From Candidatus Omnitrophota bacterium (GTDB taxonomy: Bacteria; Omnitrophota; Gorgyraeia; Gygaellales; Profunditerraquicolaceae), in the NCBI GenBank assembly GCA_041662125.1, contig JBAZTA010000004.1, forward strand, positions 343-64,342: 64,000 bases of DNA. The letters are read 5' to 3'. Every line of letters begins with the position of its first letter. Position 1 is the stretch's first letter. The notes under the pieces are model-generated. The model did not search any database. It was not told the DNA's origin and saw only the letters and a list, made by a program, of their open reading frames with translations. Shown piece by piece: positions 1-19,884 of this stretch. The translations under genes were made by a program, and so were the position numbers.

Positions 1-484
1 GTGTCGCCCCAGGAGAGGCGGTCCCATCCAACTGGGTTTCCATCTTTTGCTCAGCAGCTAAAGGTACCGTGCTGATCACGACTACGCGAGTATTAGGCTG
101 AGGAGCACCGGCAGTGTCATCCCAAGCATAAGTACCGACGAGTGCGTTTTCATCAGCAGCGGCATAATAACTATAGTTACCACTCCATCTGGCTAACGGC
201 GGCCATTTTTCAATATATGGGCCATCCCAACCGGCAATTCCGGCAACTGCGGCAGCAACACCAACAGGAGCAGTTCCAGCGGCAGCAGACGAAGGCGGCC
301 AAACACCGCAATCAGAGTAATAAGACATAACTGCCGTCTTGATCGACCTACAATCTTCAATAGTGCTGGCAACCTTTGATTTCTCAATCGCCTTGAAGGC
401 GTTCGGCGCGATGATCGCGGCTAAAATAGCGATAATAGCGATAACAACAATTAACTCGATTAATGTAAAACCTTTGTTTTTCAT
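1..484 (-). CDS. pilA: Type IV (major) pilin, class III signal peptide; 3' end runs off the window start
   Basis: Minus-strand translation from ATG at 484: MKNKG|FTLIELIVVIAIIAILAAIIAPNAF..., a canonical short prepilin leader ending in G, then F and E at +5. Continues without a stop to position 1 (..DCGVWPP..). Not in the ORF track because it is partial. G-rich RBS (GGGGGG) 5-10 nt upstream of the ATG. Confidence 0.8.
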   Translation of the reverse strand, partial: MKNKGFTLIELIVVIAIIAILAAIIAPNAFKAIEKSKVASTIEDCRSIKTAVMSYYSDCGVWPPSSAAAGTAPVGVAAAVAGIAGWDGPYIEKWPPLARWSGNYSYYAAADENALVGTYAWDDTAGAPQPNTRVVVISTVPLAAEQKMETQLDGTASPGAT

Positions 485-638: not shown

Positions 639-2372
639 TTAGCCTGATTCCAAGGTAACCCGAAAAACTTCTTCGGTTGTTGTAACACCCAGTATCAATT
701 TATCTAACGCAGCTTTACGCAAGGTCGTTAAACCTTCTTTTACGGCAACCTCGCGGATAACTTCAGCTGAAGAACGCGTCAGGACCATTTGTTGAATTCC
801 TGGCGACATCTTTAAAAGCTCATAAATACCGATCCTCCCCTTATACCCTGTTTTATTGCATATCTGGCAGCCGCGGCCGCGGCTGAATTTAATATCCTTG
901 CCTATTTTTTCTTCTAACCCTAAGCTTTTAAGCAATTCAGGCGCCGGAGCGTAATATTCTTTACACTTTTCACAAACCCGCCTGACTAAACGCTGAGCCA
1001 GGATACCCAATAACGATGAAGAGACTAAAAACGGCTCAACGCCCATATCAATTAAACGCGTAAAAGAAGATGCAGAATCATTCGTATGCAGCGTCGAGAA
1101 AACAAGATGGCCGGTAAGCGCGGCCTGTACCGCGATCTCAGCGGTTTCCTTATCTCTAATTTCTCCGACCATAACAATATCAGGGTCCTGGCGCAAAAAA
1201 GAACGCAAGGCGCTCGCAAACGTCAAACCCGCAATAGGATTGACCTGAACCTGGCGCATTCCCTGAAACTGATACTCAACCGGATCCTCAACAGTCATAA
1301 TATTGACATCTTCTTTATTAAGCATCTGCATACTGGAATATAGTGTCGTAGTCTTACCGCTGCCGGTAGGGCCGGTAACCAGGACAATGCCATAGGGAGA
1401 ACTAAGGATTTCTTTAAATAAAGACATTTCCCGGGAAGGAAACCCCAGCGATTCCAACCCTAAGACCAGCCCTGTTTTATCCAAGATCCTCAAAACCACA
1501 TTTTCTCCATGAACCGTAGGGCATGTGGAGACGCGAAAATCAATATTCTTGCTGCCGATCTTCATCATAATACGGCCGTCTTGCGGCAGGCGCTTCTCAG
1601 CAATATCCAGGTTTGACATGATCTTAAACCGGGATATGATCGCGCCGGCCAAATCACGCGGAAGAGACGGCTGATGACGCAGGATCCCATCAATACGGTA
1701 ACGAACATTTAAAAGCTTATCTTCCGGTTCGATATGAATATCCGAAGCTTTCATCTGCACTGCCTGCACAATAAGATGGTTGACTATTTTTATGATCGGA
1801 GCCTCTTCTCCAAGTTTCTCTCCGTCAACAAGTTTGTCTTTATCGATTGAAGCAATGATCTGCTGTAAATTAAACGCTGAACCCCCGTAATATTGGTCCT
1901 GGGCTTTACGAATATCTAATTCTTCGGCTAAAACCGGTTCCACATTAAGCTTGGTTATACGCTGCAGTTCATCGATAACGAAAACATTCTTAGGGTCCTG
2001 CATCGCGACAGTAAGCGTATTCTCAACTATGAAAACAGGGATCAATTTATACTTTCTGGAAAATTCCTCGGGGATAATCTTGATAACATCAGGTTCAATG
2101 ATATAGCCGGCAAGATTGAATTTAGCGATACCGGATTGGGAGGCTAGCGCCCGCTCTAATTCCTCCTGGCTGACCAATCCATTTTTAAGCAAGATCTCCC
2201 CTATCTTCTCAGTAGAAAACTTCTGCTGATCGAGAGCTTCTTTTAACTGAACCGGCGTGATCAAACCGCGTTCAATCAGTATTTCACCTAATTGTTTATG
2301 AAAACCTTCTGCCATAGTATGTATGTAATTTTCACCACAGGACTTGACGCAGGCGAGCATCCATCTCTTCAA
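639..2372 (-). CDS. PilB/GspE/MshE-family traffic ATPase with N-terminal MshEN (T2SSE_N) domains
   Basis: Walker A GPTGSGKTTTLYS, Asp/His boxes and a C-terminal tetracysteine (CEKC...CQIC). The N-terminus QLGEILIERGLITPVQLKEALDQQ plus the tandem KIGEILLKNGLVSQEELERALASQ match the 24-aa MshEN c-di-GMP-binding motif RLGxxLVxxGxITxxQLxxALxxQ. The true start is probably the internal Met at 2315 (MAEGFHK), which removes the 41-nt overlap with the upstream gene. Confidence 0.9.
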   Translation of the reverse strand: MKRWMLACVKSCGENYIHTMAEGFHKQLGEILIERGLITPVQLKEALDQQKFSTEKIGEILLKNGLVSQEELERALASQSGIAKFNLAGYIIEPDVIKIIPEEFSRKYKLIPVFIVENTLTVAMQDPKNVFVIDELQRITKLNVEPVLAEELDIRKAQDQYYGGSAFNLQQIIASIDKDKLVDGEKLGEEAPIIKIVNHLIVQAVQMKASDIHIEPEDKLLNVRYRIDGILRHQPSLPRDLAGAIISRFKIMSNLDIAEKRLPQDGRIMMKIGSKNIDFRVSTCPTVHGENVVLRILDKTGLVLGLESLGFPSREMSLFKEILSSPYGIVLVTGPTGSGKTTTLYSSMQMLNKEDVNIMTVEDPVEYQFQGMRQVQVNPIAGLTFASALRSFLRQDPDIVMVGEIRDKETAEIAVQAALTGHLVFSTLHTNDSASSFTRLIDMGVEPFLVSSSLLGILAQRLVRRVCEKCKEYYAPAPELLKSLGLEEKIGKDIKFSRGRGCQICNKTGYKGRIGIYELLKMSPGIQQMVLTRSSAEVIREVAVKEGLTTLRKAALDKLILGVTTTEEVFRVTLESG

Positions 2373-5300
2373 GCTTATTTAACCAGCTTTTCACCGCTTT
2401 CTCTTTCTTCCCCTGGGCTGATTCCGAATATATATTTTCCTCATTACCAGATTGCCGTATCTGGTTTGTTTTCCGTTTAGACATTTGATACTCTAACTGC
2501 TCTTTATCGCGTAGCGCTTCTTTACGCCTTTCTACTGCTGATTGCTGCTGGTCAATCTTGGCTTTTGCCGCCGATTCCCGCTTATCGAGTAATGGCTGCT
2601 GACCTTGAGATCGTATAAAACGTTTTTGCTGCTTTAACTCTGCCTGAAGCAGCTGTTCTTCTTTAACCCGCTGGCGCTTTTCTTCTTTAGCCGCCTCCAA
2701 CTCTTGAACGCGTTCCAACTTCTCTTTTTTCGCTGTTATCCGTTGTTCATGAATTTGTTTTTGTTGCTGGATTTTCTGCTCTACGAGCTGGAGTTTAGCT
2801 TCCTCAGCCTGTTTCAAGCGTTCTTGTTTTTGCTGCAGGGCCTCCTGATGCTGCGCAAGGCGCTGTTTTGCCAATTCCTGATCCTGCGAAGCCATTTGGC
2901 GCTTTTGCTCTTCAAGCTGATGTATACGCTCCTGTTCCTGCTTCTCTGCTGCCAGGCGCTTCTCTTCTTCTTCCTTGGCCAGCTGTTCCAGGCGCTTTTT
3001 TTCTTCTTCCTGAGCAAAAATACGGGCCGCCGAAACAGCCTGTTTTTGCTCTAACAGTTCTTTTTGTTTCTCCGCGATTTTCAGTTTCTTGGCTTCAGCT
3101 AACTTTGCCTGTTCTGCTGCTGCCTGCTTCTCCGCTGCCAGCTGCTTCTCTTCCGCTTCCTTAGCCAACCGTTCTTGGCGAACATTCTCGTCTTTAAGCT
3201 TCTTCAAACGCTCCTGCTTCTGGGCCTCTAAAACCAACCGGTTTGCTTTTTTAATCCCTGCCTGCTCTTCTGCTATCTGTTTCTGCTTTTCCTGGGCTGC
3301 TTTTTCCGCTGCCAACTGCTTCTCTTCCGCTTCCTTAGCCAACCGTTCTTGGCGAACATTCTCGTCTTTAAGCTTCTTCAAACGCTCCTGCTTCTGGGCC
3401 TCTAAAACCAACCGGTTTGCTTTTTTAACCCCTGCCTGCTCTTCTGCTGTCTGTTTCTGTTTTTCTTGTTCCTGCTTCTCTGCTGCCAGACGTTTCTCTT
3501 CCTCTTCCTTAGCCAGCTGTTCTTGGCGTTTTCTTTCTTCTTCAAGCTGTTTAAAACGTTCCTGCTTATTGATTTCCGCTGCCAACCTCTTTGCTGCTTT
3601 AAGGCTTGCCTGTTCCGCTGCTATTTGCTTCTGTTTTTCCTGTTCCTGCTTCTCCGCTGCCAAGCGTTTTTCTTCTTCTTCCTTGGCCAACTGTTCCGTT
3701 GATTTTTTTTCTCCGTCAGGCTTATGCAAAGTTTCCTGTTTCTTTTCCTCTATTGCCTTATTCCCGATCTGCCCTTTATCTCCTTTAGCCTTCTTTTGCA
3801 ATCTCTGTTTACGCAATTCTTCCTTTTGTATCCGCGCTTCTTCTAAAGAAACCTCTTTTCTTTTCGCAAGCCAGGCAGAAACATCTTCTTGCGACTGTTC
3901 TCCTCCCGCAGCCTGCGGAGATTTTTGCAGCTTTATCAAGGCCTGTTCCTGGGCCGCTACCCCTTCCGGCTTAAGCGCTTCCTGAGGCTTTAAAACCTCA
4001 ACCGATTGTTGCAGAGGGGCTATTGACTCTGCTTTTTTTTTAGCCTCCAGGGCTATTTGTTTTATCTGATCCGCTTGCTCTTGTCGGCGCTTCTTGTCTT
4101 GCGCAGCCTGTTTTAAACGCGCCTCTTTTTTCTCTTGAGCTTCCCGCTGCTTTATTTCTTTCTGTTTTCCTAATTGAATCTTCTGTATTTCAAGGGCCTG
4201 CTTTTGCTCTTCGATCTGAGCGAGGTAATTTTGTTCCTGCTCAGTTAATTGCTGAGTGCATTCTTTTTTTAATTTCTCCTCTTGCTTCTTTTTTTCTTGT
4301 TTTAATCTTTCCTGTTCCGCGGCTTTTTGCTTCTGTTTTTCTTCTTCAGCACGAACAAGTTCAGCCGCGCGCTGTTTTTCTTCCGCTTGCCGCTTTAACT
4401 CTTCCTGTTTTCTTTCTTCAGCGAGAAGCTTTCTTTCTTCCCTGATCTTTTCTTTTGCCGCTTCCAATTCTTGCAGCCGTTCCTGTTTTTCTTTCGCGGC
4501 TTCAAGCCGTTCCTCTGCCTTCTGCTTGGCGAGTTCTTCTTTATTTTTCTTTGTTTCTTCAAGCTTCTTAAGGAGCGCCTGTTTTCTTTGTTCTTCTGAT
4601 ACCTGTTTCTCTGCTGCCAGGCGTTTTTCTTCCTCTTGCTGAGCCAAATCTTCCTGCCGCTTCTGCTCCTGCGCAAGCTGCTTTATGCGCGCTTCTTTTT
4701 GTTGCTGGGCGAGTTTCCTTTTATCTTCTTTGAGCTTTTCCTGTTCACTTAAACGCTGTTTCCGCGCGTCTTCTTTTTGTTTCTTGCTGAGCTGCTTCTG
4801 GCGTTCCTCTTCCTGCCGTACGGCCTCTAACTGTTGCCGCTGCTGCAGCTGCTCTAATGCAAGTTTTTGCGTGATCAATTCCTGTTTCTTAGCCTCGATT
4901 TCCGCAAGGCGAGCCTGAGCCATACGCTCACGCTCCAGATTCTCTTCATTCAAACTTTTTTGTTCTTTTTGTTTTGCCAGGTCTTCTTGGCGCCTGCGTT
5001 CCTCATCTTGGGCAAAGAAGCGGGCCTGCGTGGCGATTCTTTTTTCTTCCTCCAAAGCAATCTGCCGCTGTATCTGGTCCTCTTCCTTAATATACTGATC
5101 TATCCTGTTTACCAAAGCGTTGATTCTGCCGTCCTCACCCAGATATTCTGTCTGCATGCCCGGGACGGTTTTCTGTACTGCCGAAGTTTCCTCAATTTTC
5201 TTATCCGTTCTGCACCCGGCCATGGAAGGAGCCGGCAGGGAATCAACTATTTTACTCTTATCTACCTGTATACCTGCCGGTGACTGCTCTTTTAAGAAAT

Positions 5301-5529
5301 CTTGGATCGCCTGCTTGCGCCTCAAAACCTCTGCTTTTTTCTTACGCAGCGCCTTGATATATTCCTCTTCTGCTTTGACCTTCTGCCGCACATCTTTCAG
5401 GCGCATTTCTTTTTCAACCGCGTTATTATCTTGAGCATAAGAGGCAGCGCTTCCCCAAAACATACATCCCATTACCCATACACCCGCGATCATAAAGAAT
5501 AATTTTTTCATCAGATAACCCCTAAGCAT
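2332..5529 (-). CDS. Giant (1065 aa) secreted E/K/Q-rich coiled-coil or single-alpha-helix protein with internal tandem repeats
   Basis: N-terminal signal peptide MKKLFFMIAGVWVMGCMFWGSAASYAQ. More than 800 aa of charged low-complexity helix (EEEKRLAAEKQEQEKQKQ...). Exact 58-aa (174-bp) tandem repeats are visible in the DNA at about 3131-3650. Its start codon abuts the stop of the upstream secretin gene (5529/5530). Confidence 0.8.
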   Translation of the reverse strand: MLRGYLMKKLFFMIAGVWVMGCMFWGSAASYAQDNNAVEKEMRLKDVRQKVKAEEEYIKALRKKKAEVLRRKQAIQDFLKEQSPAGIQVDKSKIVDSLPAPSMAGCRTDKKIEETSAVQKTVPGMQTEYLGEDGRINALVNRIDQYIKEEDQIQRQIALEEEKRIATQARFFAQDEERRRQEDLAKQKEQKSLNEENLERERMAQARLAEIEAKKQELITQKLALEQLQQRQQLEAVRQEEERQKQLSKKQKEDARKQRLSEQEKLKEDKRKLAQQQKEARIKQLAQEQKRQEDLAQQEEEKRLAAEKQVSEEQRKQALLKKLEETKKNKEELAKQKAEERLEAAKEKQERLQELEAAKEKIREERKLLAEERKQEELKRQAEEKQRAAELVRAEEEKQKQKAAEQERLKQEKKKQEEKLKKECTQQLTEQEQNYLAQIEEQKQALEIQKIQLGKQKEIKQREAQEKKEARLKQAAQDKKRRQEQADQIKQIALEAKKKAESIAPLQQSVEVLKPQEALKPEGVAAQEQALIKLQKSPQAAGGEQSQEDVSAWLAKRKEVSLEEARIQKEELRKQRLQKKAKGDKGQIGNKAIEEKKQETLHKPDGEKKSTEQLAKEEEEKRLAAEKQEQEKQKQIAAEQASLKAAKRLAAEINKQERFKQLEEERKRQEQLAKEEEEKRLAAEKQEQEKQKQTAEEQAGVKKANRLVLEAQKQERLKKLKDENVRQERLAKEAEEKQLAAEKAAQEKQKQIAEEQAGIKKANRLVLEAQKQERLKKLKDENVRQERLAKEAEEKQLAAEKQAAAEQAKLAEAKKLKIAEKQKELLEQKQAVSAARIFAQEEEKKRLEQLAKEEEEKRLAAEKQEQERIHQLEEQKRQMASQDQELAKQRLAQHQEALQQKQERLKQAEEAKLQLVEQKIQQQKQIHEQRITAKKEKLERVQELEAAKEEKRQRVKEEQLLQAELKQQKRFIRSQGQQPLLDKRESAAKAKIDQQQSAVERRKEALRDKEQLEYQMSKRKTNQIRQSGNEENIYSESAQGKKEKAVKSWLNKLEEMDARLRQVLW
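3131..3650 (-). repeat. Coding tandem repeat, period 174 bp: two near-identical copies plus a diverged third
   Basis: 3131-3294 and 3305-3469 are nearly base-identical (differences e.g. taatccc/taacccc and gctatctg/gctgtctg). A third, more diverged unit follows. On the minus strand this encodes LVLEAQKQERLKKLKDENVRQERLAKEAEEKQLAAEK..QEKQKQIAEEQAGIKKANR. Confidence 0.85.
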
Positions 5530-6798
5530 CTATTGCTTCATTTTTTCTACAACTACTTTTTCCACTTCCTCTAAAACCCTGAGGTCCTGTTCTTGCCTGC
5601 GCAGATCCTGCTCCAATGCTTCTCTTTCTGAAAGCAGGGAAGAATGTTTTTTATTGAGCATCTCGACCTTAGTCGCGGTTTCTTTTTGTTTTTTCTTTTC
5701 CTGAGCCTCTGCCACTAACACATCCTTTTCCTGTTTCTGTTTTTCCTGAAAATAATGCTTTCCCAGGCCGTACCTCTCCTGCTGCCCCATTTTTACAAAC
5801 TCATTCGGCGTGATTATCGTAGGAGAGACAAAGATCATTAATTCTGTCTTATCAAACGTGTCTTTCTTGCTTTTAAACAAATACCCAAAGCCGGGGATAT
5901 CTCCTAAAAAAGGTATCTTCGTTTCTCCCTTGATGACTTTATCTTTGATCAATCCGCCGATGATCAATGTCTGCCCGTTACCAACAATGACCTTCGTCGT
6001 TGCTTCACGCCGGTCAATAATGGGAACATTATATGACACCCCGGAAGCAGTCAGCGGCAACTCTCCGGTCTTTTCGCTTATCTGTGGATACAATTCCATA
6101 GCTATGTTGCCAGCTTCATTGATGGTCGGAGTTACCTTCAGGCTTATACCAACTTGTTCAAAATGTACTACCCAGGTCACCGTGGTGACGCCATCAGTGG
6201 TTGTCGCCTGCGGCTCGGCCCAAGGGACACTTTGAATGATCTTTAATTCCGCTTCACGGTTATTCACCGTTGTTATCCGCGGCGCAGAAAGGATGCTCGT
6301 ATCCACCGCGTTAGCTAACGTTTGCAATACCACATTGATATTATCATCAAATATGGCAAAAGTAAACGGCGTTTCCGAAACTCCTGATGACGACACCGGA
6401 GGGTATAAAGTATTTTTGTAGGAAAGGCTTTGAGTTATCGGCCCTGGTAACGCTCCCAAGGTACTTGCTGAGCCGGACTTTAAAGTGCCGATAGGCAGAT
6501 ATCCTTTATCCGCGAATAACCGCCAATTCACGCCTAAAGAGTGTTCTTTCTGTAATTTTGCTTCAATGACCCGGGCTTCGATCAAAACCTGCTGAGGAAC
6601 AGTATCCACCATTGCCAGGTAATCTTCAACCCGCTGGACGTTATCAGGATAATCGATCACAACAATAGAATTCGGCTCATTGCCATAGAGAACCTTTCCC
6701 TCCGTAGATAACAACGATCTAATGTTATCACTGACTTGTTGAGCATAAACTACGGAAAAGCAAAAAAGAAAAAATAAAACGTATCCTAACTTTTTCAT
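5530..6798 (-). CDS. Secretin core protein (one N-domain plus secretin C-domain) lacking an N0 domain; C-terminal EK-rich coiled-coil tail
   Basis: Signal peptide MKKLGYVLFFLFCFSVVYAQ. N-domain motif NSIVVIDYPDNVQRVEDYLAMVDTVPQQVLIEARVIEAKL. Secretin signature IPFLGDIPGFGYLFKSKKDTFDKTELMIFVSPTII. About 90 aa of charged C-terminal extension. Confidence 0.8.
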   Translation of the reverse strand: MKKLGYVLFFLFCFSVVYAQQVSDNIRSLLSTEGKVLYGNEPNSIVVIDYPDNVQRVEDYLAMVDTVPQQVLIEARVIEAKLQKEHSLGVNWRLFADKGYLPIGTLKSGSASTLGALPGPITQSLSYKNTLYPPVSSSGVSETPFTFAIFDDNINVVLQTLANAVDTSILSAPRITTVNNREAELKIIQSVPWAEPQATTTDGVTTVTWVVHFEQVGISLKVTPTINEAGNIAMELYPQISEKTGELPLTASGVSYNVPIIDRREATTKVIVGNGQTLIIGGLIKDKVIKGETKIPFLGDIPGFGYLFKSKKDTFDKTELMIFVSPTIITPNEFVKMGQQERYGLGKHYFQEKQKQEKDVLVAEAQEKKKQKETATKVEMLNKKHSSLLSEREALEQDLRRQEQDLRVLEEVEKVVVEKMKQ

Positions 6799-6852
6799 GT
6801 ATTCTCCTTCTCACTGATAGCCACTTCTATCCATACTACAGCAGGCATACTG

Positions 6853-7806
6853 CTAATTCGTAGTAGTTGCCGATGACGAGGAAGACGCACTGCCGGATGA
6901 GGAAGTAGTTCCCGTCGAGGTACTGCTCCCTGCCGTAGTAACAACGCCTACTATATCAGAAGCTTTTAAATACTTCATCTTAAAAATTTTACTTGTCATA
7001 CGCTGATCGATCTGTTTTAAATAATCTTCGATTTGCGCGGCATTCGGAGGATAATCAATAATAATAATTGAATTCGGGAGCTGCCCTAAAAGGATCTTTC
7101 CTTTCTCAGAAATAAGGTCATAGATCGTGCTTTCTTCCTTTTTTGCCTCAGCCGGCAGAGCCGCGTTACCCGCAGGAGATGCTACCGTCTTTGATTGGGC
7201 GCCTTGCGCTGCTTTCGCAGCTTCAAGCAGCTTCTTAGCTTGAATATATTTTAAAACAACCATCTTGGTAACCAGATGAGGACTGACCCGGATAATCGAA
7301 CCTTTTTTCTCTACCACCAGATTACTGATCTCAGCAATTCCTTCAAGAGCCTCTTCTAATGAAATGTTCGTAAAACTGGCGGTGATTTTCCCCTTGATAT
7401 CTTTATCAACCAAAATATTCAAATTATAATCATGCGCAATAACGCGGAACAAGTCAGACAACTCCACATTCCTTAACTCAATCGAATATGACGGCTGCTC
7501 ACTTTCTAAACGCTTGATCTCTAATACCGGCGCAGGCGCAGTTAATTCTTTTTTTACAACGTCTTTCTTTCCCGCATCCTTAACATCGGCTTCTGCTTTT
7601 TCGTCAGCCGGCTCTTCATCCTTACTATCGTCAACGCCGGAATCTTTTTGCCCAACGCTGGGCACCGAAGGCTTCGGTTGAGCCGGTTTTTCGGAATCCT
7701 CATTTTCCATTTCTGTCTGCGGCCGGGCAAACAATGGATCTTGGTAATTATAAAGCATAAAAAAGAAACCGATTAATCCGATAAACGCTATTTTCTTTAG
7801 TGTCAT
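6853..7806 (-). CDS. Secretin N0-N1 domain protein (N-terminal half of a split secretin) with acidic linker and Ser/Thr-rich C-terminal tail
   Basis: Signal/TM MTLKKIAFIGLIGFFFMLYNY. Acidic low-complexity stretch. N0/STN-like block SIELRNVELSDLFRVIAHDYNLNILVDKDIKGKITASFTNISLEEALEGIAEISNLVVEKKGSIIRV. N1-like block LPNSIIIIDYPPNAAQIEDYLKQIDQR. Tail TTAGSSTSTGTTSSSGSASSSSSATTTN. Confidence 0.65.
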   Translation of the reverse strand: MTLKKIAFIGLIGFFFMLYNYQDPLFARPQTEMENEDSEKPAQPKPSVPSVGQKDSGVDDSKDEEPADEKAEADVKDAGKKDVVKKELTAPAPVLEIKRLESEQPSYSIELRNVELSDLFRVIAHDYNLNILVDKDIKGKITASFTNISLEEALEGIAEISNLVVEKKGSIIRVSPHLVTKMVVLKYIQAKKLLEAAKAAQGAQSKTVASPAGNAALPAEAKKEESTIYDLISEKGKILLGQLPNSIIIIDYPPNAAQIEDYLKQIDQRMTSKIFKMKYLKASDIVGVVTTAGSSTSTGTTSSSGSASSSSSATTTN

Positions 7807-9863
7807 TTTTTAAGTCCTTGTTCTGAATTCAAATCTTTGCCACCGATGATAGATTCGAATTCTGTTTTATCAAGCCCTTTTCCCCACATGACTGTTACCT
7901 GATTTTTTTGCACACCGTACGCGAACAACTCTTTCGTCGCAAGATTCGAGAAAAAATCGCCCCGGCCCTCCTTGAAAACCCCCCGCTTATTTTCCTCGAC
8001 GGATATGCCCGGGTATTTTTTCTGAAGCCACTGTTTTTGCCCTTGCGCAAATTCTAACGCATCATCAATCGTATCCCAAAACGACACAAAACGTATGAGC
8101 CGGTTGCCCTGGCTATTTTCATACACCATAACACGATCACCCTGCCAACCCGAAACGGATTTATCGGAAGTTTCCTTGTCTAACAAGGTATTTAAAGATA
8201 TAAGGAGCGTAAATTCACCAAGGGTAGTTTCATAGATCTTTTTCCATTGCAGGGGGACCTTAACGCTCTCTTCAACAACGGGAACATCTTTTTCTGACGC
8301 TATTTCCCTGCCCACATACTTATGAGGATGCATGATCTCCTCCATGGAAACAGGAGGCGTTGTATAAACAGCATTAATGTCGCTCCAATTGAACTGCCGT
8401 AAATACGCCTGTATGAACCGCGCCCCATAACCGTATACATTATACCGGATATTCTGCTTTGCGTACTGTGATTGTTTTAGAAATTTATCTTCCAGCAAGG
8501 TAAAAACATCTTCAAGATTCTGCAGTTTCTTATCATCCTTGTTCAAAATATACTCAAGCATTACCGCGGTAGCATCCCCCTCTATAAGGGACTGACGGGC
8601 AAACGCCAGGTCAAAATTATCCCTCGTATGAAGGCGGTCAGAGAATTTCTCAATATCGTAGTTTTTATCCTGAAACGCATGCGCCAGCTCATGGACCGCG
8701 ACTACTTCGGCAAAATGAGGAGGCAGCCAATCTCCGATAAAAATCGTCTTTGTTTTAGGGTCATATAACCCCGCGATCGAAGAAATTTCCGCATTAAGCA
8801 TGCTTTCAAGATAATCCGCATCTTGATGCACTAAACCCAGCCATTTCATGACAAAACCTTCATTATCCCTGATTTCTTCAGGAAAATCATTATCCGATGC
8901 TGTTCTTAAAAGCTCCCCGAACGACACACGGTCTTTATATTCGACTTGAATCGTTTCTGGTTTCACCCAGCCTCGTATCTGCATAACTGCCTGCGTCAAA
9001 CCAGGAAGCATTCCTTTAAGCTTTTCTTTTTCTTGTGTGACCTTTTCTTCAACAACCGCGGGAATTGCCGATACAACCGGAACACCGAAATCGGAATAGG
9101 TGACGGTCTGCAAAATATACATATCACCCAGCTTGCCTTCAGCACGCAACAGGCGCGGAAGGAACGTATTGGCATCTACCCAGGTTTTGACCTTGATCTC
9201 ACCAACCACATTCCAATACGTAAACATTTGAGCGCCCAGCCTATACTGCAGGACAAAACAATCTTTGCCATTCCTTTTTTCAACACCAACCAGCTCAAGA
9301 GTTAAAGCGTCAGCCGCGGCTGCATTGATTGAAGCAAGGCTGTTTAAAACCCCGTATTCAACCGCTTGTTGAGCGTCTTTTGCCGAGATCTTCAATTGCT
9401 CGCATTTCCATTCCCGTTTATTCAAATCCCAGGTAAAAGGGATCCCCCTGATCATATACGTTTGTACCCATTGCGAAGTTGAAATACCGTTAGATAAAAG
9501 CAATGATACACTGACTCTACCGGTCGTCCGATAATCATCATGATTGGTAATTTCGCTCTTAAAATCTGATTTGATATGGAAAAGGGGGTTTTCAAGCCAC
9601 GTTTCGATTTCCATGTGCACAGAACGTGCTTTAAAAAATGCTGAGGTGGTTTTTTCCAGGATTTGATACGGGCTAAGTTTAACGCTTACTTGAGGGAATG
9701 AAGAAATTATCTGATGTTCTTTTTGGCCTTGCGCAGCAGTATCCGGTTTAGGCCCCATACAATCAGTTAAATTGATCCGCTGCCAACCGGCAAGTAACGG
9801 TAAAGCAATAACGAAGAACATGCCGACAGAGATTCTTTTTAATCCTGACCCTGTTTTCATCAA
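7803..9863 (-). CDS. Secreted or periplasmic HEXXH zinc-metallopeptidase-like protein (686 aa)
   Basis: N-terminal signal/TM (MFFVIALPLLAGW). HEXXH motif VVAVHELAHAFQD with a downstream Glu (SLIEGDATAV). No closer family assignment is possible by eye. Confidence 0.5.
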   Translation of the reverse strand: MMKTGSGLKRISVGMFFVIALPLLAGWQRINLTDCMGPKPDTAAQGQKEHQIISSFPQVSVKLSPYQILEKTTSAFFKARSVHMEIETWLENPLFHIKSDFKSEITNHDDYRTTGRVSVSLLLSNGISTSQWVQTYMIRGIPFTWDLNKREWKCEQLKISAKDAQQAVEYGVLNSLASINAAAADALTLELVGVEKRNGKDCFVLQYRLGAQMFTYWNVVGEIKVKTWVDANTFLPRLLRAEGKLGDMYILQTVTYSDFGVPVVSAIPAVVEEKVTQEKEKLKGMLPGLTQAVMQIRGWVKPETIQVEYKDRVSFGELLRTASDNDFPEEIRDNEGFVMKWLGLVHQDADYLESMLNAEISSIAGLYDPKTKTIFIGDWLPPHFAEVVAVHELAHAFQDKNYDIEKFSDRLHTRDNFDLAFARQSLIEGDATAVMLEYILNKDDKKLQNLEDVFTLLEDKFLKQSQYAKQNIRYNVYGYGARFIQAYLRQFNWSDINAVYTTPPVSMEEIMHPHKYVGREIASEKDVPVVEESVKVPLQWKKIYETTLGEFTLLISLNTLLDKETSDKSVSGWQGDRVMVYENSQGNRLIRFVSFWDTIDDALEFAQGQKQWLQKKYPGISVEENKRGVFKEGRGDFFSNLATKELFAYGVQKNQVTVMWGKGLDKTEFESIIGGKDLNSEQGLKK

Positions 9864-10322
9864 CTACGCTTCTCCCGGGACAACTGCTTCGATTTTAATA
9901 ATATACTCCCCTTGAGTATCTTTTAAAATAACATCTTCGGCATTAATCGTTATCACCTGTTTATTATCAATAATATCTCCGACTTCATACACCTGGCCGT
10001 TAATGATTGCTTTACTTTTATTTTTAGGCGAATGCATAATCGCCGATACCGTTAAATAATCAAGCGGGATTTGCGCGCTTTTATTTTCAAAAGATGATTC
10101 CTCATCTGTGCTTAAAAAAGGGTTCTGCCGGGGCAACGCGTCAAAATAAGAAGACTGCGGCGCCTGCACCGGAGCATCACCTGTTACCGCAAGAGCGGCC
10201 TTCTTTTTTGGTTTTGGCTCAGAAGACTGATCTGCCAAATGCCCTATTTCAGTTTCAGAGCTGCAGCCTCCGCAAGAAAAAGCAAACAATAAAATAAGCG
10301 AAAGGATCCTTATCTTATTCAA
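9864..10322 (-). CDS. PilP/GspC-HR-like lipoprotein
   Basis: Lipobox LFAFSCGGCSS. C-terminal beta-domain pattern AIINGQVYEVGDIIDNKQVITINAEDVILKD resembles PilP and the GspC HR domain, and is paralogous to 19885-20355. Starts with TTG at 10322, overlapping the upstream HTH gene by 8 nt. Confidence 0.55.
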   Translation of the reverse strand: MNKIRILSLILLFAFSCGGCSSETEIGHLADQSSEPKPKKKAALAVTGDAPVQAPQSSYFDALPRQNPFLSTDEESSFENKSAQIPLDYLTVSAIMHSPKNKSKAIINGQVYEVGDIIDNKQVITINAEDVILKDTQGEYIIKIEAVVPGEA

Positions 10323-10506
10323 TGCTGCCCCTTATAATCTTACTTAACTCATTAAGGTTCTGTTGGCTATATTGCCGCCAATGATTAATCGAATTGCGTT
10401 TTGGCTTTGGGAAAATCCCTTTTCTTTCGTAGCGGAAAAGGGTTTGTTTGGAAATCCCAAGTTTTTCCGCGGCCTCCTTAGCAGTATATATTATTTCTTG
10501 ATCCAT
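10315..10506 (-). CDS. Small excisionase/MerR-type HTH DNA-binding protein (63 aa)
   Basis: YTAKEAAEKLGISKQTLFRYERKGIFPKPKRNSINHWRQYSQQNL fits the Xis/AlpA-type helix-turn-helix pattern. It is a paralog of the N-terminal domain of 25688-26341. The C-terminal tail KIIRGSIE resembles a truncated prepilin leader. Confidence 0.65.
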   Translation of the reverse strand: MDQEIIYTAKEAAEKLGISKQTLFRYERKGIFPKPKRNSINHWRQYSQQNLNELSKIIRGSIE

Positions 10507-10692: not shown

Positions 10693-11526
10693 TTAAACCC
10701 GCGCAAGCTTCAAGAGTTTACTCTTGCTATCCTCAGAAATTTCTGAGAATTTTATACCTAAATAATACCGCTGTCTTTCCTGAATATTGCAATAAACAAT
10801 CTCTCCCTGAACCGCAATAACCTCATCACCGATCCCGGGATTCGGCCTAAATTCTATATCCACCGTAAGGCCTTTAGGCAGAAATAAGCATACCTGTAAA
10901 CTAACAGCTTTCCCGGATTCCGATATATTACAGGACACCCCCTCAACAGAAAGAATAGAACGCAATTGCACTTCTGTTCCTGCAAAGATAACACGCACAG
11001 GAACAGTTAAACTGCGGCGGCCTGATTCCCTGCGAAACGGTACCCCTTGTAAAGGATTTTTCTTGAATAATAACTTCTCCAGTTTAAAAAAATCTGCTTG
11101 CGGGCCGTAATATAAATCAAGCGCTTGCAGGATAGCGCGGGGAGAAGCAATCAACGGCTCTATCGTTGCCCCGCTCAGAGAAGCTATGCGGTCAAGTAAC
11201 GCAGTATCAAAAGGGTCCCCGCAAGCCACATACAACGTATTCTTTATTTTAAATAACGGGATACACTCATACTCCCGGCAAAAAGATTCGCTTAACCCTT
11301 GGAAGACATGCGCGCTAATTTTATAGTCCGGAATAGTTACGTAATTGACCGCGCTTTCCTGTGAGAAAAATACAAAAATATCTTCTTCGGTAAGATACTC
11401 CAGCTTTACCAACACACTCCAAATGGACCTGCCTAACTTCAACGCTTCCTGCTTGGCGTCAAGCAGTTGTTGCGAAGTAATCAACGTACTGCGGACAAGC
11501 TTCAACTCAAACTCTTCCATCGGCAA
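10693..11526 (-). CDS. MshEN (T2SSE_N)-PilZ two-domain c-di-GMP effector
   Basis: The N-terminal 140 aa is GSPII_E-N-like (LITSQQLLDAKQEALKLG...ACGDPFD...DLYYG). The C-terminus is a PilZ fold with RRESGRRS (RxxxR) and CNISESGKAV (D/NxSxxG). Confidence 0.7.
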   Translation of the reverse strand: MPMEEFELKLVRSTLITSQQLLDAKQEALKLGRSIWSVLVKLEYLTEEDIFVFFSQESAVNYVTIPDYKISAHVFQGLSESFCREYECIPLFKIKNTLYVACGDPFDTALLDRIASLSGATIEPLIASPRAILQALDLYYGPQADFFKLEKLLFKKNPLQGVPFRRESGRRSLTVPVRVIFAGTEVQLRSILSVEGVSCNISESGKAVSLQVCLFLPKGLTVDIEFRPNPGIGDEVIAVQGEIVYCNIQERQRYYLGIKFSEISEDSKSKLLKLARV

Positions 11527-11530
11527 TGCG

Positions 11531-12103
11531 CTATCCTTTTTCTTGCTGAGGGTAATACTTTTTTATAAAATCAGCCAGGTTTTCCGAAATCTTCTGTTCT
11601 TCAATAATATACATGCCTCCCTTAGTTAACTCTTCCGGAGATACCTGCGGGTACTTTTTCTGCATTGCTTCAAGCCATTCTGCCTGCTGACGGGCAATTT
11701 TCAGCAATACCCGGTTATCGCGGACCACATCAAAATAATCAAGCGACTGCTTCACGATCATTTTCAATTCTTCGTTTTCCCAGGGTTTGGTAATAAAGCG
11801 GTATACCTGCCCCTTATTGATTGCCTGAATAGCAGCTTCCAGGTCAGGATACCCGGTAAAAAGGATACGGATCGAATCAGGATAGAGCTGTTTAACTTTA
11901 ACCAGAAAATCAACGCCCTGGCCGTCTGGCAGGCGGTTGTCGGAAATGACTAAATCCACACCTCCTAAACTCTTGAGTTTATCAAGGCCTTCCTGAACAC
12001 AACCAGCAATATTTATATCCCTGTCTTCAGCGCGCAGCAGCCTGCTTAAACTGCTTAAAATATTCTGCTCATCATCAACGATTAAAATAGTATGGTTAGG
12101 CAT
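11531..12103 (-). CDS. Response regulator receiver (CheY-like REC) with short C-terminal extension
   Basis: ILIVDDEQNI...DLVISDNRLPDGQGVDFLVKVK...FTGYPD...ITKPW: phospho-acceptor Asp and conserved REC motifs. Confidence 0.85.
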   Translation of the reverse strand: MPNHTILIVDDEQNILSSLSRLLRAEDRDINIAGCVQEGLDKLKSLGGVDLVISDNRLPDGQGVDFLVKVKQLYPDSIRILFTGYPDLEAAIQAINKGQVYRFITKPWENEELKMIVKQSLDYFDVVRDNRVLLKIARQQAEWLEAMQKKYPQVSPEELTKGGMYIIEEQKISENLADFIKKYYPQQEKG

Positions 12104-12455
12104 TCTTTTGCTCCTCTAAATTTTTAACATAGTGATCGATATACTCCTTTCCGGAAGACGGAAAGATTTTTGTAAACATGACCCCCATGCCCGCCGCCTC
12201 TGAGCCACCCGCGGGCCTGCTCCACTGCACTATCCCTTCCGCATGAATGATCTTCTTTTCTTTGCCGCCTTCATCAAACTCAAACATGACCTCGATCTTG
12301 GCATTAGCCGGCTCTACCTTATCGGTTGAAACAAACATCCCTCCCGCGGAAATATCGCGGGTTTCGACATACTGCCAAAAACTTTTTCCTCTGACCTCTA
12401 CTCGTAGCTTAACAAACGCCCGCTTATATTGCCTTTTTTCGTCAAAAGCCCCCAT
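12096..12455 (-). CDS. Standalone PilZ-domain protein
   Basis: RQYKRAFVKL (RxxxR) and DISAGGMFV (DxSxxG) motifs. Confidence 0.75.
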   Translation of the reverse strand: MGAFDEKRQYKRAFVKLRVEVRGKSFWQYVETRDISAGGMFVSTDKVEPANAKIEVMFEFDEGGKEKKIIHAEGIVQWSRPAGGSEAAGMGVMFTKIFPSSGKEYIDHYVKNLEEQKNA

Positions 12456-12528
12456 CGTTTCTCCTGGTTATTGTATACGTTTCCCCAACCCCGTCCTTGC
12501 GCGCTTTAAAAAACTAAAACAATCTTAA

Positions 12529-13380
12529 TCATGACCCTTGAGGCGCCCTCGGCAATTGCACCACAAACGTTGTCCCTGCTCCAACAGTACTCTCCACCTT
12601 CACATCGCCGCCATGATGCTTAACAATATTATAGCTGACTGACAACCCAAGCCCCGTGCTTTTTTTGGTCGAGAAGAACGGATCGAAGATCTTCGGCAAG
12701 ACATCTTTTGCGATGCCAGTTCCGGTATCAATTACTTTAACATATACATTCCTGGCATCTTCATAGGTGCTCATCGTGATCGTCCCTTTATCAACGATAG
12801 CCTGGCTGGCATTAATCAACAGATTAAGGAAAACTTGAGACAATTGCGTCGTATCTGCCAATATCTTGGATTTTGCCTGATAGTCTTTTATGACCGTCAC
12901 CTTATACTTTATCTCATTCCAGACGATCGCAAGCACCGACTCCAGGACATGATTAATCTCAACCGCAGCATTCTGCGTCTCGCTTCTGCGGGAGAAAGTA
13001 CGCAGGTCAGAGACGATTTTCTTGATACGTACCGCCCCGTCAAGCGACTCCTGGTTCATCGCCTTCATGTCTTCGATCAATACCTTATTTTCTTTTTCCG
13101 TTAAAGAAATCTTTCCCTCGATCTGCTGGGTATAATCTTTAAGGCTTTGCAGGTTGCTGATTAGAAAACCGAGCGGATTATTGATCTCATGCGCGATACC
13201 CGCAGCCAACGTTCCCAAGGAAGCCATCTTTTCCATATGCACGATCTGAGCTTCGGCATCTTTTACAAGCTTTGTTTTCTCATCGACTTTTTTCTTCCAA
13301 AAGCTGTTCATGACAACGGTATATACCACGCAGGCAATAACGCTGATCGCGATCACTATGAGCATTCCCCCGATATTCAT
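12529..13380 (-). CDS. Sensor histidine kinase (TM anchor + DHp + HATPase_c, no sensor domain)
   Basis: N-terminal TM helix. H-box HEINNPLGF. N, G1 and G2 boxes (LLINASQA, IDTGTGIAKD, GLGLSVS). Confidence 0.85.
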   Translation of the reverse strand: MNIGGMLIVIAISVIACVVYTVVMNSFWKKKVDEKTKLVKDAEAQIVHMEKMASLGTLAAGIAHEINNPLGFLISNLQSLKDYTQQIEGKISLTEKENKVLIEDMKAMNQESLDGAVRIKKIVSDLRTFSRRSETQNAAVEINHVLESVLAIVWNEIKYKVTVIKDYQAKSKILADTTQLSQVFLNLLINASQAIVDKGTITMSTYEDARNVYVKVIDTGTGIAKDVLPKIFDPFFSTKKSTGLGLSVSYNIVKHHGGDVKVESTVGAGTTFVVQLPRAPQGS

Positions 13381-17036: not shown

Positions 17037-18377
17037 CTATTCTCCACGATTTTTAGGCAGCAATTCAACATCGACTTTCTTTCCTGCAGCCGCTGCCGGA
17101 TCCGCAGTATCAGAAGAAAAAGATGGATCAGCCAGTTTGAACATAGCGCTGACCTGCTGGAATTTATTTTGTAATTCGTTTAATTTCGCCTTAGTCTGGT
17201 TTAAATCATTGGCCAGGGTTTCCCGCTCTATTTGGACAGAAACATTCTGTTCCCGCAGCAGCGTGGATTCTTTTTTCATCTCTTTATATTTTGAGTAGAC
17301 CTCAAATGTCTTGGCGTCTGCTTCTTCCAGCCGCTGCTTTATAAAAGCCATCTCTTCTTTGCGGCGAGACAGCTCAGCCTCATTCTGCTTCATGGCTAAC
17401 TGTTCAGTCGCATGTACATCACTCAGATCGGAATAATCTTTGCGCAATTTCTCCAGCTGCGACTTAAACGAATTCATCTCTTTTACCAGGTCTTGATTTT
17501 TCTTATTCAAAAGCGCTAAACTCATCTTTTGTTTCTCGGTACGCTGCGCATACTCCTGTTTTTCCTGTATCAGCTTTGCCTCTCGAGCTTGAGCATCTTT
17601 TAATTCCCTGTCCAGCTTTTCCATAACCGGTTTTAAATCAGGCCCGCCGAGGGAAAGTTCTTGTAATGTTTTCTCCAAATCAAGCGCCTTCTGCGCTAAC
17701 AATGCTTTTTCATTTGCCACGCTGAGCAGCTGCCCTGAAACAGAATTCAAGCTGCTCTGTAACGCTTCTTTCTGGGACTGCGCTTCTGCGAACTGTTTCT
17801 TAAACGCCTGCAATTCTTCTTCCTTGTGCGCCAGGCTTTCACGTAACCGCTCTGTTTGTTCTTTATATATTGCTACCTGGTTCAACAACGAAGGGATCTG
17901 CGAATTAACCGAATCAAGTTCTTTCCCTAAATTTTCTAATTGAGCGATAAATTCATTCCCCTTATCCGGCTGGAGTTTCAACTCCGTCAAAATACGCTCT
18001 AATTGAGAAATCTTTTCTTTTACCGGTAGCGAAATATCAGCGCTGCCTTTGAGCTTCGCCAATTCTTTCTCCAGGCCCTCCTTTTGCTGAACTGCATCTT
18101 TCAACTGTCCCTGCAGGTCAATGACCTTTGATTTTACATCGAGAGCCTTTGCTTTTTCTTCGTTAAACGACTGATGCAGGGTAAGATTAAACTTACCGAA
18201 GCCATTGACCACTTCCCGTAATTGCCGCACCTGAGATTCCAGCATTGAAACGGAAATCCCGTCCTTATCCACGCCGCTTGCCGGCCGGGCTTTTTTAGAA
18301 AGCTTGACCGCTTGGAAAAGCACAAAAGAAAGCAGCATGACTACGATAAAAAGGATGAAGAGTTTTTTATCCGTCAT
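17037..18377 (-). CDS. Membrane-anchored long coiled-coil protein (446 aa), unknown T4P accessory
   Basis: N-terminal TM (LFILFIVVMLLSFVLF). The remainder is heptad-rich, Q/E/K/L-rich coiled coil. Confidence 0.5.
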   Translation of the reverse strand: MTDKKLFILFIVVMLLSFVLFQAVKLSKKARPASGVDKDGISVSMLESQVRQLREVVNGFGKFNLTLHQSFNEEKAKALDVKSKVIDLQGQLKDAVQQKEGLEKELAKLKGSADISLPVKEKISQLERILTELKLQPDKGNEFIAQLENLGKELDSVNSQIPSLLNQVAIYKEQTERLRESLAHKEEELQAFKKQFAEAQSQKEALQSSLNSVSGQLLSVANEKALLAQKALDLEKTLQELSLGGPDLKPVMEKLDRELKDAQAREAKLIQEKQEYAQRTEKQKMSLALLNKKNQDLVKEMNSFKSQLEKLRKDYSDLSDVHATEQLAMKQNEAELSRRKEEMAFIKQRLEEADAKTFEVYSKYKEMKKESTLLREQNVSVQIERETLANDLNQTKAKLNELQNKFQQVSAMFKLADPSFSSDTADPAAAAGKKVDVELLPKNRGE

Positions 18378-19789: not shown

Positions 19790-19884
19790 TATGAATGCCT
19801 CTTGGATAACACCTGATTTTTTCCTGATAAAAAATTATACCACACTCCCAGCAATAGTTTGACTATTTTTATACACGCCAAAGC

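What the first reader, a model, noticed from the sequence alone, without database searches (positions are those of the whole stretch)
5530..7806. Secretin split into two polypeptides: N0-N1 protein and N-domain + secretin-core protein
The two adjacent ORFs:
- 6853-7806 encodes signal peptide, acidic linker, an N0/STN-like domain and an N1-like domain, then stops in a Ser/Thr-rich tail.
- 5530-6798 begins with its own signal peptide, has one N-domain and the secretin C-domain with the IPFLGDIP..F signature, but no N0.

Together they reconstitute the domain order of a normal PilQ/GspD. The bona fide PilQ 12 kb away (18374-19789) has N0 + N1 + core in one chain.

Gene fission of a secretin, with both halves keeping cleavable signal peptides, is unusual. 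It implies the periplasmic N0-N1 ring is a separate, possibly exchangeable subunit. The 54-nt spacer and separate signal peptide argue against a simple frameshift.
Basis: partly seen in the sequence, partly recalled or inferred. Interest (0 to 1): 0.7.

Follow-up and report, generated by a model that had tools for sequence, protein, structure and literature searches.

The report
Two-gene secretin, split inside a domain
In this Omnitrophota genome the outer-membrane pore protein (secretin) of a pilus/secretion machine is encoded by two adjacent genes; the cut runs through the middle of one small periplasmic domain, and the arrangement is conserved across the phylum, so it is real but not the first split secretin known.

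Summary
ORF A (6853-7806, minus strand) has a signal peptide, an acidic linker, N0, N1 and a Ser/Thr-rich tail. ORF B (5530-6798, minus strand) has its own ribosome-binding site and signal peptide, part of an N domain, the secretin core and a C-terminal helix.

It is not an artefact:
- About 44 species-level Omnitrophota genomes carry the same A-B pair. The spacer is short and the two genes lie in all three relative frames.
- dN/dS is 0.09-0.22.

A ends with that domain's beta1-alpha1 (near-invariant motif (V/I)FKLKYLKA..VVG). Mature B starts with the remainder. Joining the two halves raises the Pfam Secretin_N score from 24 to 34 bits and gives a full-length match.

Unsplit relatives sit in the same operon and carry motif, Ser/Thr loop and B head in one chain. 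Split and unsplit forms interconvert several times in the tree through an indel of about 100 nt.

AlphaFold runs did not show the proposed trans-complementation, so that step remains inferred.

Split secretins are already known in rhizobial T3SS (RhcC1/RhcC2) and in mitochondrial T2SS (GspD/GspDN halves). This is therefore a new variant of a known kind, of moderate interest.

The parts
6853..7806 (-). ORF A (317 aa): the periplasmic N0-N1 subunit of the split secretin.
   Evidence: Pfam STN 29.6 bits and Secretin_N 29.9 bits. TIGR02515 PilQ positions 5-168 matched. AF2 gives pLDDT >90 for residues 94-265. Foldseek hits PilQ, XcpQ, MxiD and GspD N0-N1. There are 154 homologues, and the best 120 are all 230-395 aa with no Secretin core.
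7723..7806 (-). Predicted Sec signal peptide of A (about aa 1-28, ...PLFA|RPQ).
   Evidence: Hydrophobic core with KD 2.6. The position aligns with the conserved FAQ site in homologues. No dedicated signal-peptide predictor was available.
7279..7527 (-). N0 (STN-type) domain of A, aa 94-176.
7006..7272 (-). Complete N1 domain of A, aa 179-267, with a low-complexity insertion between helix 1 and strand 2 (aa about 205-232).
   Evidence: Pfam Secretin_N profile positions 1-67. AF2 strands at 179-184, 237-240 and 246-251, helices at 190-204 and 253 onward.
6946..6996 (-). C-terminal half-domain motif of A (aa 271-287, SKIFKMKYLKASDIVGV). It is beta1-alpha1 of the split N domain.
   Evidence: F275, K276, L277, K278, Y279, A282 and G287 are invariant or at least 90% conserved. 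Adding the motif to the B head raises Secretin_N from 24.1 to 33.5-34.7 bits and makes the match full length. In unsplit relatives the motif is the start of the second N domain.
6856..6945 (-). Ser/Thr-rich tail of A (30 aa, 70% S/T). It is the remnant of the intradomain loop.
   Evidence: A low-complexity loop of the same kind links the two halves in unsplit P0245, P0251 and P0284.
6799..6852 (-). 54-nt spacer with a second in-frame stop (TGA 6813-6811) and the ribosome-binding site AAGGAG (6809-6804).
   Evidence: No terminator-like or promoter-like site on the minus strand here.
5530..6798 (-). ORF B (422 aa): the outer-membrane pore subunit of the split secretin.
   Evidence: Pfam Secretin 157 bits. 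PDB sequence hits XcpQ 2e-37 and PilQ 8e-31. Foldseek top hits are GspD and PilQ. The 120 best homologues are almost all 385-446 aa with the same N-terminus.
6742..6798 (-). Predicted signal peptide of B (aa 1-19, ...VVYA|QQ).
   Evidence: KD 2.65. An AQ(Q/E) site is conserved in about 115 of 120 homologues. The unsplit relative L055 lacks exactly this block.
6598..6741 (-). Second part of the split N domain (aa 20-67: end of helix 1, beta2, beta3, alpha2).
   Evidence: Pfam Secretin_N profile positions 12-69 or 18-69 only. AF2 gives H58-61, E67-70, E77-80 and H83-97 in the chimera numbering.
5812..6309 (-). Secretin core domain (aa 164-329), including KIPFLGDIPGFGYLF.
5533..5757 (-). C-terminal long helix or coiled coil of B (aa about 348-422).
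   Evidence: AF2 gives helix 379-453 of the chimera with pLDDT >90. This region is extended to 750-aa proteins in L026 and L041.
9864..10322 (-). Small GspB/GspC-like exported protein, the conserved first gene of the module.
   Evidence: Weak T2SSB, CdsD_C and GspC_delta matches. Present upstream of A in nearly all loci.
639..2372 (-). PilB/GspE-type ATPase with an MshE-type c-di-GMP-binding N-terminus, conserved downstream of B.
   Evidence: T2SSE 474 bits. c-di-GMP motif 63 bits against a cut-off of 38. Synteny.

Best explanation
ORFs A and B are the two subunits of one secretin. It belongs to a type IV filament machine (T4P/T2SS-like). The operon reads MerR-like regulator, GspB/C-like protein, [HExxH protein], A, B, coiled-coil protein, PilB/GspE ATPase, pilins.

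How it arose. An ancestral single gene (N0, N1, N2, core) was cut inside the long low-complexity loop that these N domains carry between helix 1 and strand 2. The cut acquired a stop codon, a ribosome-binding site, a start codon and a signal peptide.

How it probably works:
- Both products are exported by Sec.
- B builds the outer-membrane barrel and gate. It hangs an incomplete N domain (beta2-beta3-alpha2) into the periplasm.
- A supplies the N0 and N1 rings that reach the inner-membrane platform. Its conserved C-terminal beta1-alpha1 most likely docks onto B's incomplete domain, restoring a normal N-domain fold in trans. This resembles fragment or donor-strand complementation and would give a 1:1 hetero-oligomer.

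What is shown: the domain content, the position of the cut, phylum-wide conservation, purifying selection, orthology with unsplit genes, and repeated interconversion between the split and unsplit forms.

What is inferred: physical A-B association, the complementation mechanism, and the stoichiometry.
For: 1. Domain content comes from Pfam and NCBIfam, PDB sequence search and fold searches.
2. The pair is conserved. In every Omnitrophota locus with enough sequence (about 44), an A homologue is directly followed by a B homologue. The median gap is 14.5 nt and the relative frames are 20/10/10. The reverse test from B homologues P0231 and P0188 also finds A upstream.
3. dN/dS is 0.15-0.22 for A and 0.09-0.12 for B.
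4. The half-domain motif at A's C-terminus is among the best conserved stretches of A. The mature N-terminus of B is equally conserved.
5. B head alone scores 24.1 bits on Secretin_N (profile 18-69, below the cut-off of 28.2). A tail plus B head scores 33.5-34.7 bits (profile 2-69).
6. Unsplit relatives P0245, P0241, P0251 and P0284 carry motif, S/T loop and B head in one chain. Pfam reads this as one complete Secretin_N. They sit in the same operon.
7. A DNA alignment of unsplit L055 with its split sister L008 shows flanks that align well on both sides. The unsplit gene lacks about 100 nt that encode tail end, stop, RBS, ATG and signal peptide, and the junction falls at the signal-peptidase site.
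8. A short A variant (N0 + motif + tail only) recurs in L042, P0323, P0325, P0327 and P0328. In those genomes the only N domain of the secretin is the split one.
9. NJ tree with 59 bootstrap replicates: 4-9 split/unsplit changes, and the ingroup root is split in 58 of 60.
10. In AF2 of A alone, the motif has no strand partner within A, and confidence falls along it.
Against: - AF2 of a single-chain chimera (A residues 267-317 joined to mature B) left the A-derived beta1-alpha1 unstructured (pLDDT <50, no strand). The rest of B's N domain and the barrel were confident. The alignment covered that stretch with only three sequences, so the result is weak, but it is negative.
- In A alone, AF2 draws the motif as an extension of helix alpha2, not as a strand.
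- No multimer prediction, no coordinates and no experimental data were available.
- Signal peptides were judged from hydropathy and conserved A-Q sites only.
- The tree is neighbour-joining on 305 columns. It was rooted with the paralogous secretin, not on a species tree.
Confidence: 0.75

Rival explanations
1. A and B do form one secretin complex, but not by complementation of the split domain. A's N1 ring simply stacks under B's partial domain, or binding goes through other surfaces. The conserved motif would then be a helix or a ring-contact element.
For: AF2 did not dock the motif onto B in the chimera. It modelled the motif as a helical extension in A alone. B's beta2-beta3-alpha2 is predicted confidently without beta1.
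Against: The motif is homologous to beta1-alpha1 of the intact N domain in unsplit orthologues and in A's own N1. It is kept even in short A variants that have nothing else after N0. The AF2 alignment depth on the motif was only three sequences.
Confidence: 0.2
2. A works independently of B, for example as an STN-domain adaptor or signalling protein, or as a partner of the other secretin (18374-19789). B would then be a self-sufficient short secretin.
For: Secretins without N0 exist. STN domains also occur in FecR and TonB-dependent systems (FecR_C hit).
Against: A-B adjacency is strict in about 44 of 44 loci, and also when starting from B. Orthologous operons carry A and B as one chain. A's fold matches secretin N0-N1 best. 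The other secretin already has its own N0-N1.
Confidence: 0.04
3. The split is an artefact or decay: a sequencing or assembly error, a recent pseudogene, or one gene expressed by stop-codon read-through or frameshifting.
For: In this window the two ORFs happen to be in the same frame.
Against: Two in-frame stops are present, and B has its own RBS and signal peptide. The split recurs in independent assemblies with all three frame relations and gaps from -29 to +49 nt. Both genes are under purifying selection. Read-through would place a hydrophobic signal peptide in the middle of a periplasmic domain.
Confidence: 0.01

Closest known systems
Unsplit Omnitrophota orthologues (e.g. P0245, 700 aa, 'Candidatus Omnitrophica bacterium', GCA_021159015.1; also P0251 and P0284)
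   Same: They sit in the same operon: MerR-like, GspB-like, secretin, long coiled-coil protein, MshE-type ATPase, pilin. The domain order is the same (N0, N1, N2, core), with the same motif and the same low-complexity loop.
   Different: They are one polypeptide. They have no stop, RBS or signal peptide in the loop.
Rhc-family type III secretion 'split secretin' RhcC1 (NolW) / RhcC2 of rhizobia, and HrcIIC1/C2 of Pseudomonas syringae
   Same: A stand-alone exported N0 + N1 protein is paired with a separate protein that carries the Secretin core. The arrangement is long conserved, and the papers state that its functional meaning is unknown (PMC3574062; PMC3973906). My scan of NolW finds T3S N0 plus Secretin_N.
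   Different: It belongs to a T3SS. The genes are not adjacent: they lie 11.6 kb apart on opposite strands in pNGR234a. RhcC2 has its own pilus-N (PF13629) and BON domains, so it is CpaC/RcpA-like and not the missing half of an N domain.
Mitochondrial T2SS of some protists: GspD plus GspDN1-3 (Horvathova et al. 2021, PMC8134430)
   Same: The secretin is split into several polypeptides. [quoted passage not shown] GspD and GspDN1 interact in yeast two-hybrid.
   Different: It is eukaryotic, with unlinked nuclear genes, no N0 domain and no GspC. No correspondence of the halves to a particular domain could be established.
Canonical single-chain T2SS GspD and T4aP PilQ (e.g. XcpQ 5WLN, V. cholerae PilQ 6W6M)
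   Same: These are the best sequence and fold matches for both parts. The context of PilB/GspE ATPase and pilins is the same.
   Different: They are single polypeptides. B alone and A alone both score below the curated cut-offs of TIGR02517 and TIGR02515.
Secretins with stoichiometric accessory partners (BfpB-BfpG 17:17, PMC12531336; PilQ-TsaP 6VE2)
   Same: A hetero-oligomeric outer-membrane complex built from a secretin and a second periplasmic protein.
   Different: Those partners are not pieces of the secretin itself, and BfpB keeps its own N0. Here A is homologous to the secretin's own N-terminal region.

Membership tests
Secretin superfamily (PF00263-containing outer-membrane channels) | C-terminal Secretin domain with gate and beta-barrel | tested here: met
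   B scores 157 bits on PF00263 at residues 164-329. The AF2 barrel has pLDDT >90, and Foldseek matches GspD and PilQ at E 1e-13.
Secretin superfamily (PF00263-containing outer-membrane channels) | Periplasmic N0 followed by one or more N1-type (Secretin_N) domains | tested here: met
   These domains are present but on the separate protein A. The last N domain is divided between A and B.
Secretin superfamily (PF00263-containing outer-membrane channels) | All domains on one polypeptide | tested here: not met
   Two ORFs, two stops, and B's own RBS and signal peptide. The split is conserved in about 44 genomes.
Secretin superfamily (PF00263-containing outer-membrane channels) | Forms a 12-17-mer channel in the outer membrane | not testable with these tools
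   No multimer prediction and no experiment were available.
T2SS GspD (TIGR02517) / T4aP PilQ (TIGR02515) equivalogs | Score above the curated whole-protein cut-off | tested here: not met
   B scores 219.5 against 351.35 (GspD) and 200 against 284.35 (PilQ). A scores 66.6 against 284.35. The two families score about equally, so the subtype is undecided.
Rhc-type split secretin (RhcC1/RhcC2) | Stand-alone N0 + N1 protein plus a separate core protein | tested here: met
   A and NolW have the same architecture.
Rhc-type split secretin (RhcC1/RhcC2) | Part of a type III secretion gene cluster, with a core protein of the pilus-N + BON + Secretin type | tested here: not met
   The context here is a PilB/GspE ATPase with pilins. 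B has no PF13629 or BON domain, whereas RhcC2 has both.
Mitochondrial T2SS split GspD (GspD/GspDN) | Halves of a Secretin_N domain on different polypeptides | tested here: met
   for this locus. PMC8134430 for the miT2SS.
Mitochondrial T2SS split GspD (GspD/GspDN) | Eukaryotic and nuclear-encoded, with no N0 domain | tested here: not met
   This is a bacterial operon and N0 is present on A.

The most novel reading that the evidence does not exclude
A secretin N domain is rebuilt in the periplasm from two separately exported chains. The beta1-alpha1 piece at the end of the N0-N1 subunit inserts into the incomplete domain of the pore subunit, much as in donor-strand complementation. The pore and its periplasmic rings could then be made, inserted and joined in separate steps. 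The repeated switches between split and unsplit genes would make Omnitrophota a natural experiment on why secretins are normally one chain.
Probability: 0.5. Interest if true: 0.6.

Novelty: new variant of a known kind. Interest (0 to 1): 0.5.

Why it matters
Secretins are treated as single-chain homo-oligomers. Here a whole phylum builds one from two chains, and the cut runs through a folded domain.

If the halves reassemble in trans, three things follow. N domains would be shown to tolerate, and perhaps exploit, fragment complementation. There would be a handle for studying the order of secretin assembly: barrel first, rings later. Genome annotation would also improve, because B is currently called 'hypothetical protein' or GspD and A is called a 'secretin and TonB N-terminal domain protein'.

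The case also links two scattered precedents, rhizobial RhcC1/C2 and mitochondrial GspD/GspDN. It suggests that the loop after helix 1 of Secretin_N is a preferred breaking point.

It does not reveal a new kind of machine.

Tried and rejected
- A full A + B chimera aligned with both families was unusable. MAFFT placed A homologues' N1 on B's head because of the internal repeat.
- The accepted chimera job had only three sequences over the motif and did not dock it. I report this as negative or inconclusive.
- A PDB sequence search with the GspB/C-like neighbour gave nothing useful.
- My first guess for the pNGR234a T3SS region was wrong. The second found nolW and rhcC2.
- Literature searches for Omnitrophota/Omnitrophica with secretin, PilQ or type IV pili found no description of this split.
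- I rejected read-through or frameshift expression, pseudogene status and assembly error.
- I rejected 'fission between N1 and the next domain' in favour of an intradomain cut.
Full report
**1. What is in the window**

All genes from 1 to about 23 kb lie on the minus strand.

ORF A (6853-7806, 317 aa) has these parts:
- A hydrophobic N-terminus followed by an acidic, proline-rich linker.
- An STN/N0 domain (Pfam 29.6 bits).
- A Secretin_N domain (29.9 bits).
- A 30-residue tail that is 70% Ser/Thr.

ORF B (5530-6798, 422 aa) has these parts:
- It starts MKKLGYVLFFLFCFSVVYA|QQ.
- It has only a partial Secretin_N match (profile positions 12-69, 20.4 bits, below the cut-off).
- It has a strong Secretin core (157 bits) with KIPFLGDIPGFGYLF.
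- It ends in a predicted long helix.

NCBIfam places A on the first 168 positions of the PilQ model and B on positions 126-428.

The 54-nt spacer carries AAGGAG five bases before B's ATG. The two ORFs share a frame, but two stops separate them. There is no terminator-like or promoter-like site between them.

The other secretin, at 18374-19789, is complete in one chain.

**2. It is not an artefact**

A's 154 database relatives are almost all named Candidatus Omnitrophota. The best 120 are 230-395 aa and lack a Secretin core. B's best 120 relatives are nearly all 385-446 aa and begin with a signal peptide.

A scan of one genome per species returned 45 Omnitrophota-type loci. Some carry other NCBI names, which I could not check.

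In every locus with enough downstream sequence, an A homologue is followed directly by a B homologue as a separate reading frame:
- The median gap is 14.5 nt (range -29 to +49, with one gap of 245).
- The relative frames are 20/10/10.

Starting instead from two B homologues on long contigs also finds an A-type gene immediately upstream.

dN/dS is 0.15-0.22 for A and 0.09-0.12 for B.

An exhaustive HMMER search of 1.84 billion cluster representatives finds 84 clusters at E <= 1e-30. About 78 of them are stand-alone proteins of 166-395 aa. Scores then drop sharply to ordinary secretins at 25-30% identity.

**3. Where the cut lies**

A does not end after N1. Residues 271-287 (SKIFKMKYLKASDIVGV) follow the pattern of strand 1 and helix 1 of an N domain. 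They are among the most conserved positions of the family: F275, K276, L277, K278, Y279, A282 and G287.

Mature B begins a few residues before ...IRSLLSTEGKVLYGNEPNSIVVIDYPDNVQRVEDYL. That is the end of helix 1, then strands 2 and 3, then helix 2, and it is equally conserved.

Pfam scores quantify this:
- B's head alone gives 24.1 bits on profile positions 18-69.
- A's motif joined to B's head gives 33.5 bits on positions 2-69.
- With the natural Ser/Thr tail as linker the score is 34.7 bits.
- A's own intact N1 scores 27.1 bits.

A's N1 has the same build, with a low-complexity insertion after helix 1. So these N domains carry a long disordered loop, and the gene is cut inside the loop of the last one.

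**4. Unsplit relatives settle the homology**

A search with a fused relative found at least 16 single-chain versions in Omnitrophota.

P0241, P0245, P0251 and P0284 read N0, N1, N2, core. In P0245 the sequence is ...MSMEVFRLKYLSAAEIVGEIEKKTRGVSTTTSSSTSSTSTSSESSDEDGNYPVTSKVLELLSLEGKILFGQEPNSLMVIDYPENL.... Pfam reads this stretch as one complete Secretin_N: residues 251-344 in P0245 and 223-314 in P0251.

P0245 sits in the same operon as A and B here: MerR-like, GspB-like, secretin, 878-aa protein, MshE-type ATPase, pilin. It is seen on five contigs. P0251 is seen on three contigs longer than 200 kb.

I aligned the DNA of unsplit L055 with its split sister L008. Both coding flanks align well. 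The unsplit gene lacks about 100 nt that encode the tail end, TAA, a GGAGG site, ATG and the signal peptide. The junction falls at the signal-peptidase site.

**5. Variants and history**

A short A variant is N0 followed directly by the motif and a tail, about 180-190 aa. It recurs in L042, P0323, P0325, P0327 and P0328. In those genomes the secretin's only N domain is the split one. The half-domain motif is thus the constant feature, and the intact N1 is optional.

I built a neighbour-joining tree on 305 core columns, rooted with the paralogous secretin, with 59 bootstrap replicates:
- It needs 4-9 changes between split and unsplit (mode 5-6).
- It infers 'split' at the ingroup root in 58 of 60 trees.
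- It pairs P0251 with L008's B in 60 of 60.

Re-fusion needs only an in-frame deletion, whereas fission needs a new signal peptide. I therefore read the split as ancestral to this family, with several secondary fusions. This inference rests on a simple tree.

**6. Structure predictions**

For A alone (102-sequence alignment), N0 (residues 94-176) and N1 (179-265) have pLDDT >90. The motif is drawn as a continuation of helix 2, with confidence falling from 80 to 62 to 46, and it has no strand partner within A.

The A model's best structural matches are the N0-N1 regions of PilQ, XcpQ, MxiD, EscC and GspD.

A single-chain chimera of A residues 267-317 joined to mature B gave a confident barrel, gate and C-terminal helix. 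B's beta2-beta3-alpha2 also folded. The A-derived motif stayed unstructured, with pLDDT <50.

The proposed trans-complementation is therefore not supported by prediction. It rests on homology and conservation.

**7. Mechanism proposed**

- Both proteins are exported by Sec. This is inferred from sequence.
- B forms the outer-membrane channel.
- A provides the N1 and N0 rings. In known systems, N0 is the site that binds the GspC HR domain or PilP (established knowledge; compare 3OSS among A's fold hits).
- A small GspB/C-like protein is the conserved first gene of the module.
- A's beta1-alpha1 most likely completes B's N domain and tethers the two in a 1:1 complex.

I put about 0.95 on 'two subunits of one secretin' and about 0.5-0.55 on the complementation step.

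**8. Comparison with what is known**

Split secretins are not new.
- In Rhc-type T3SS the secretin is encoded by rhcC1 (nolW) and rhcC2, and the papers say the meaning is unknown. In pNGR234a, NolW is signal peptide + N0 + Secretin_N. RhcC2 lies 11.6 kb away and is a pilus-N + BON + Secretin protein, that is, CpaC-like. That is a different kind of split.
- In the mitochondrial T2SS of some protists, GspD is split into several proteins. GspDN2 and GspDN3 are the C- and N-terminal halves of a Secretin_N domain. This is the closest parallel to the intradomain cut here.
- BfpB-BfpG is a secretin with an unrelated stoichiometric partner.

I found no paper that describes the Omnitrophota case.

**9. 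Verdict**

This is a real, conserved two-gene secretin of the T2SS/T4aP class, cut inside its last N domain. It has unsplit orthologues and repeated interconversion between the two forms.

It is a new variant of a known kind. Interest is moderate (0.5): it is a neat natural case for domain complementation and secretin assembly, not a new system.

Noticed in passing
window 2332-5529 (-); also 17037-18377 (-); L026, L041: A 1065-aa exported protein made almost entirely of E/K/Q/A-rich coiled coil with internal repeats follows B directly. It causes the strong AT skew at 2-6 kb. B itself ends in a 75-aa helix. In some genomes B is 750 aa long with an extended coiled coil. The second secretin is also followed by a coiled-coil protein. 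A 'secretin + periplasmic coiled-coil protein' pairing seems to be a theme in this phylum. Its role is unknown.
   Followed up: partly
window 7803-9863 (-): A 686-aa protein with an HExxH motif (VHELAH) gives DUF6782 and Hvo_1808-family matches. It is wedged between the GspB-like gene and A, and its stop overlaps A's start. It is present in roughly one third of related loci. It could be a periplasmic or surface metallopeptidase tied to the machine.
   Followed up: partly
window 10315-10506 (-): A small 63-aa MerR-type helix-turn-helix ORF sits in the apparent gap upstream of the GspB-like gene. The same small gene precedes the module in L050, L053, L055 and L056. A -35/-10-like site lies at 10630-10602. 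It is probably the local regulator.
   Followed up: partly
window 2-484 (-): A prepilin gene (MKNKGFTLIELIVV..., GspG-like at 59 bits, below the cut-off) starts at 484 and runs off the left end of the window. The operon therefore continues beyond the window.
   Followed up: partly
window 639-2372, 10693-13380, 14723-16387 (-): There is a dense set of c-di-GMP-related parts between and around the two secretin systems. They are two PilB/GspE ATPases with MshEN domains (one with a c-di-GMP motif at 63 bits against a cut-off of 38), an MshEN + PilZ protein, a stand-alone PilZ, a response regulator and a histidine kinase.
   Followed up: no
L052 (pNGR234a) 18670-20097 (-) and 18094-18660 (-): The rhizobial 'C-terminal half' RhcC2 is not a literal half of SctC. 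It is a pilus-N (PF13629) + BON + Secretin protein next to a CpaD-family lipoprotein, which is a Tad/Cpa-type secretin architecture. The textbook description of the Rhc split may need refinement.
   Followed up: partly
L016, L021, L038, L044; P0323, P0328: In the early-branching lineages the tail after A's motif is not Ser/Thr-rich. It is a charged, probably helical stretch (...ERAEREKQREERKAEREELKEIR...). B's head is also more divergent in these lineages.
   Followed up: no
P0324 (436 aa): One A-type protein (N0 + degenerate N1) is fused to a long E/K/Q coiled coil instead of ending in the motif. This again links the N0-N1 subunit with the coiled-coil proteins.
   Followed up: no
L023 10549-10795: One related locus has a 245-nt gap between A and B instead of the usual 0-50 nt. 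I did not examine it.
   Followed up: no
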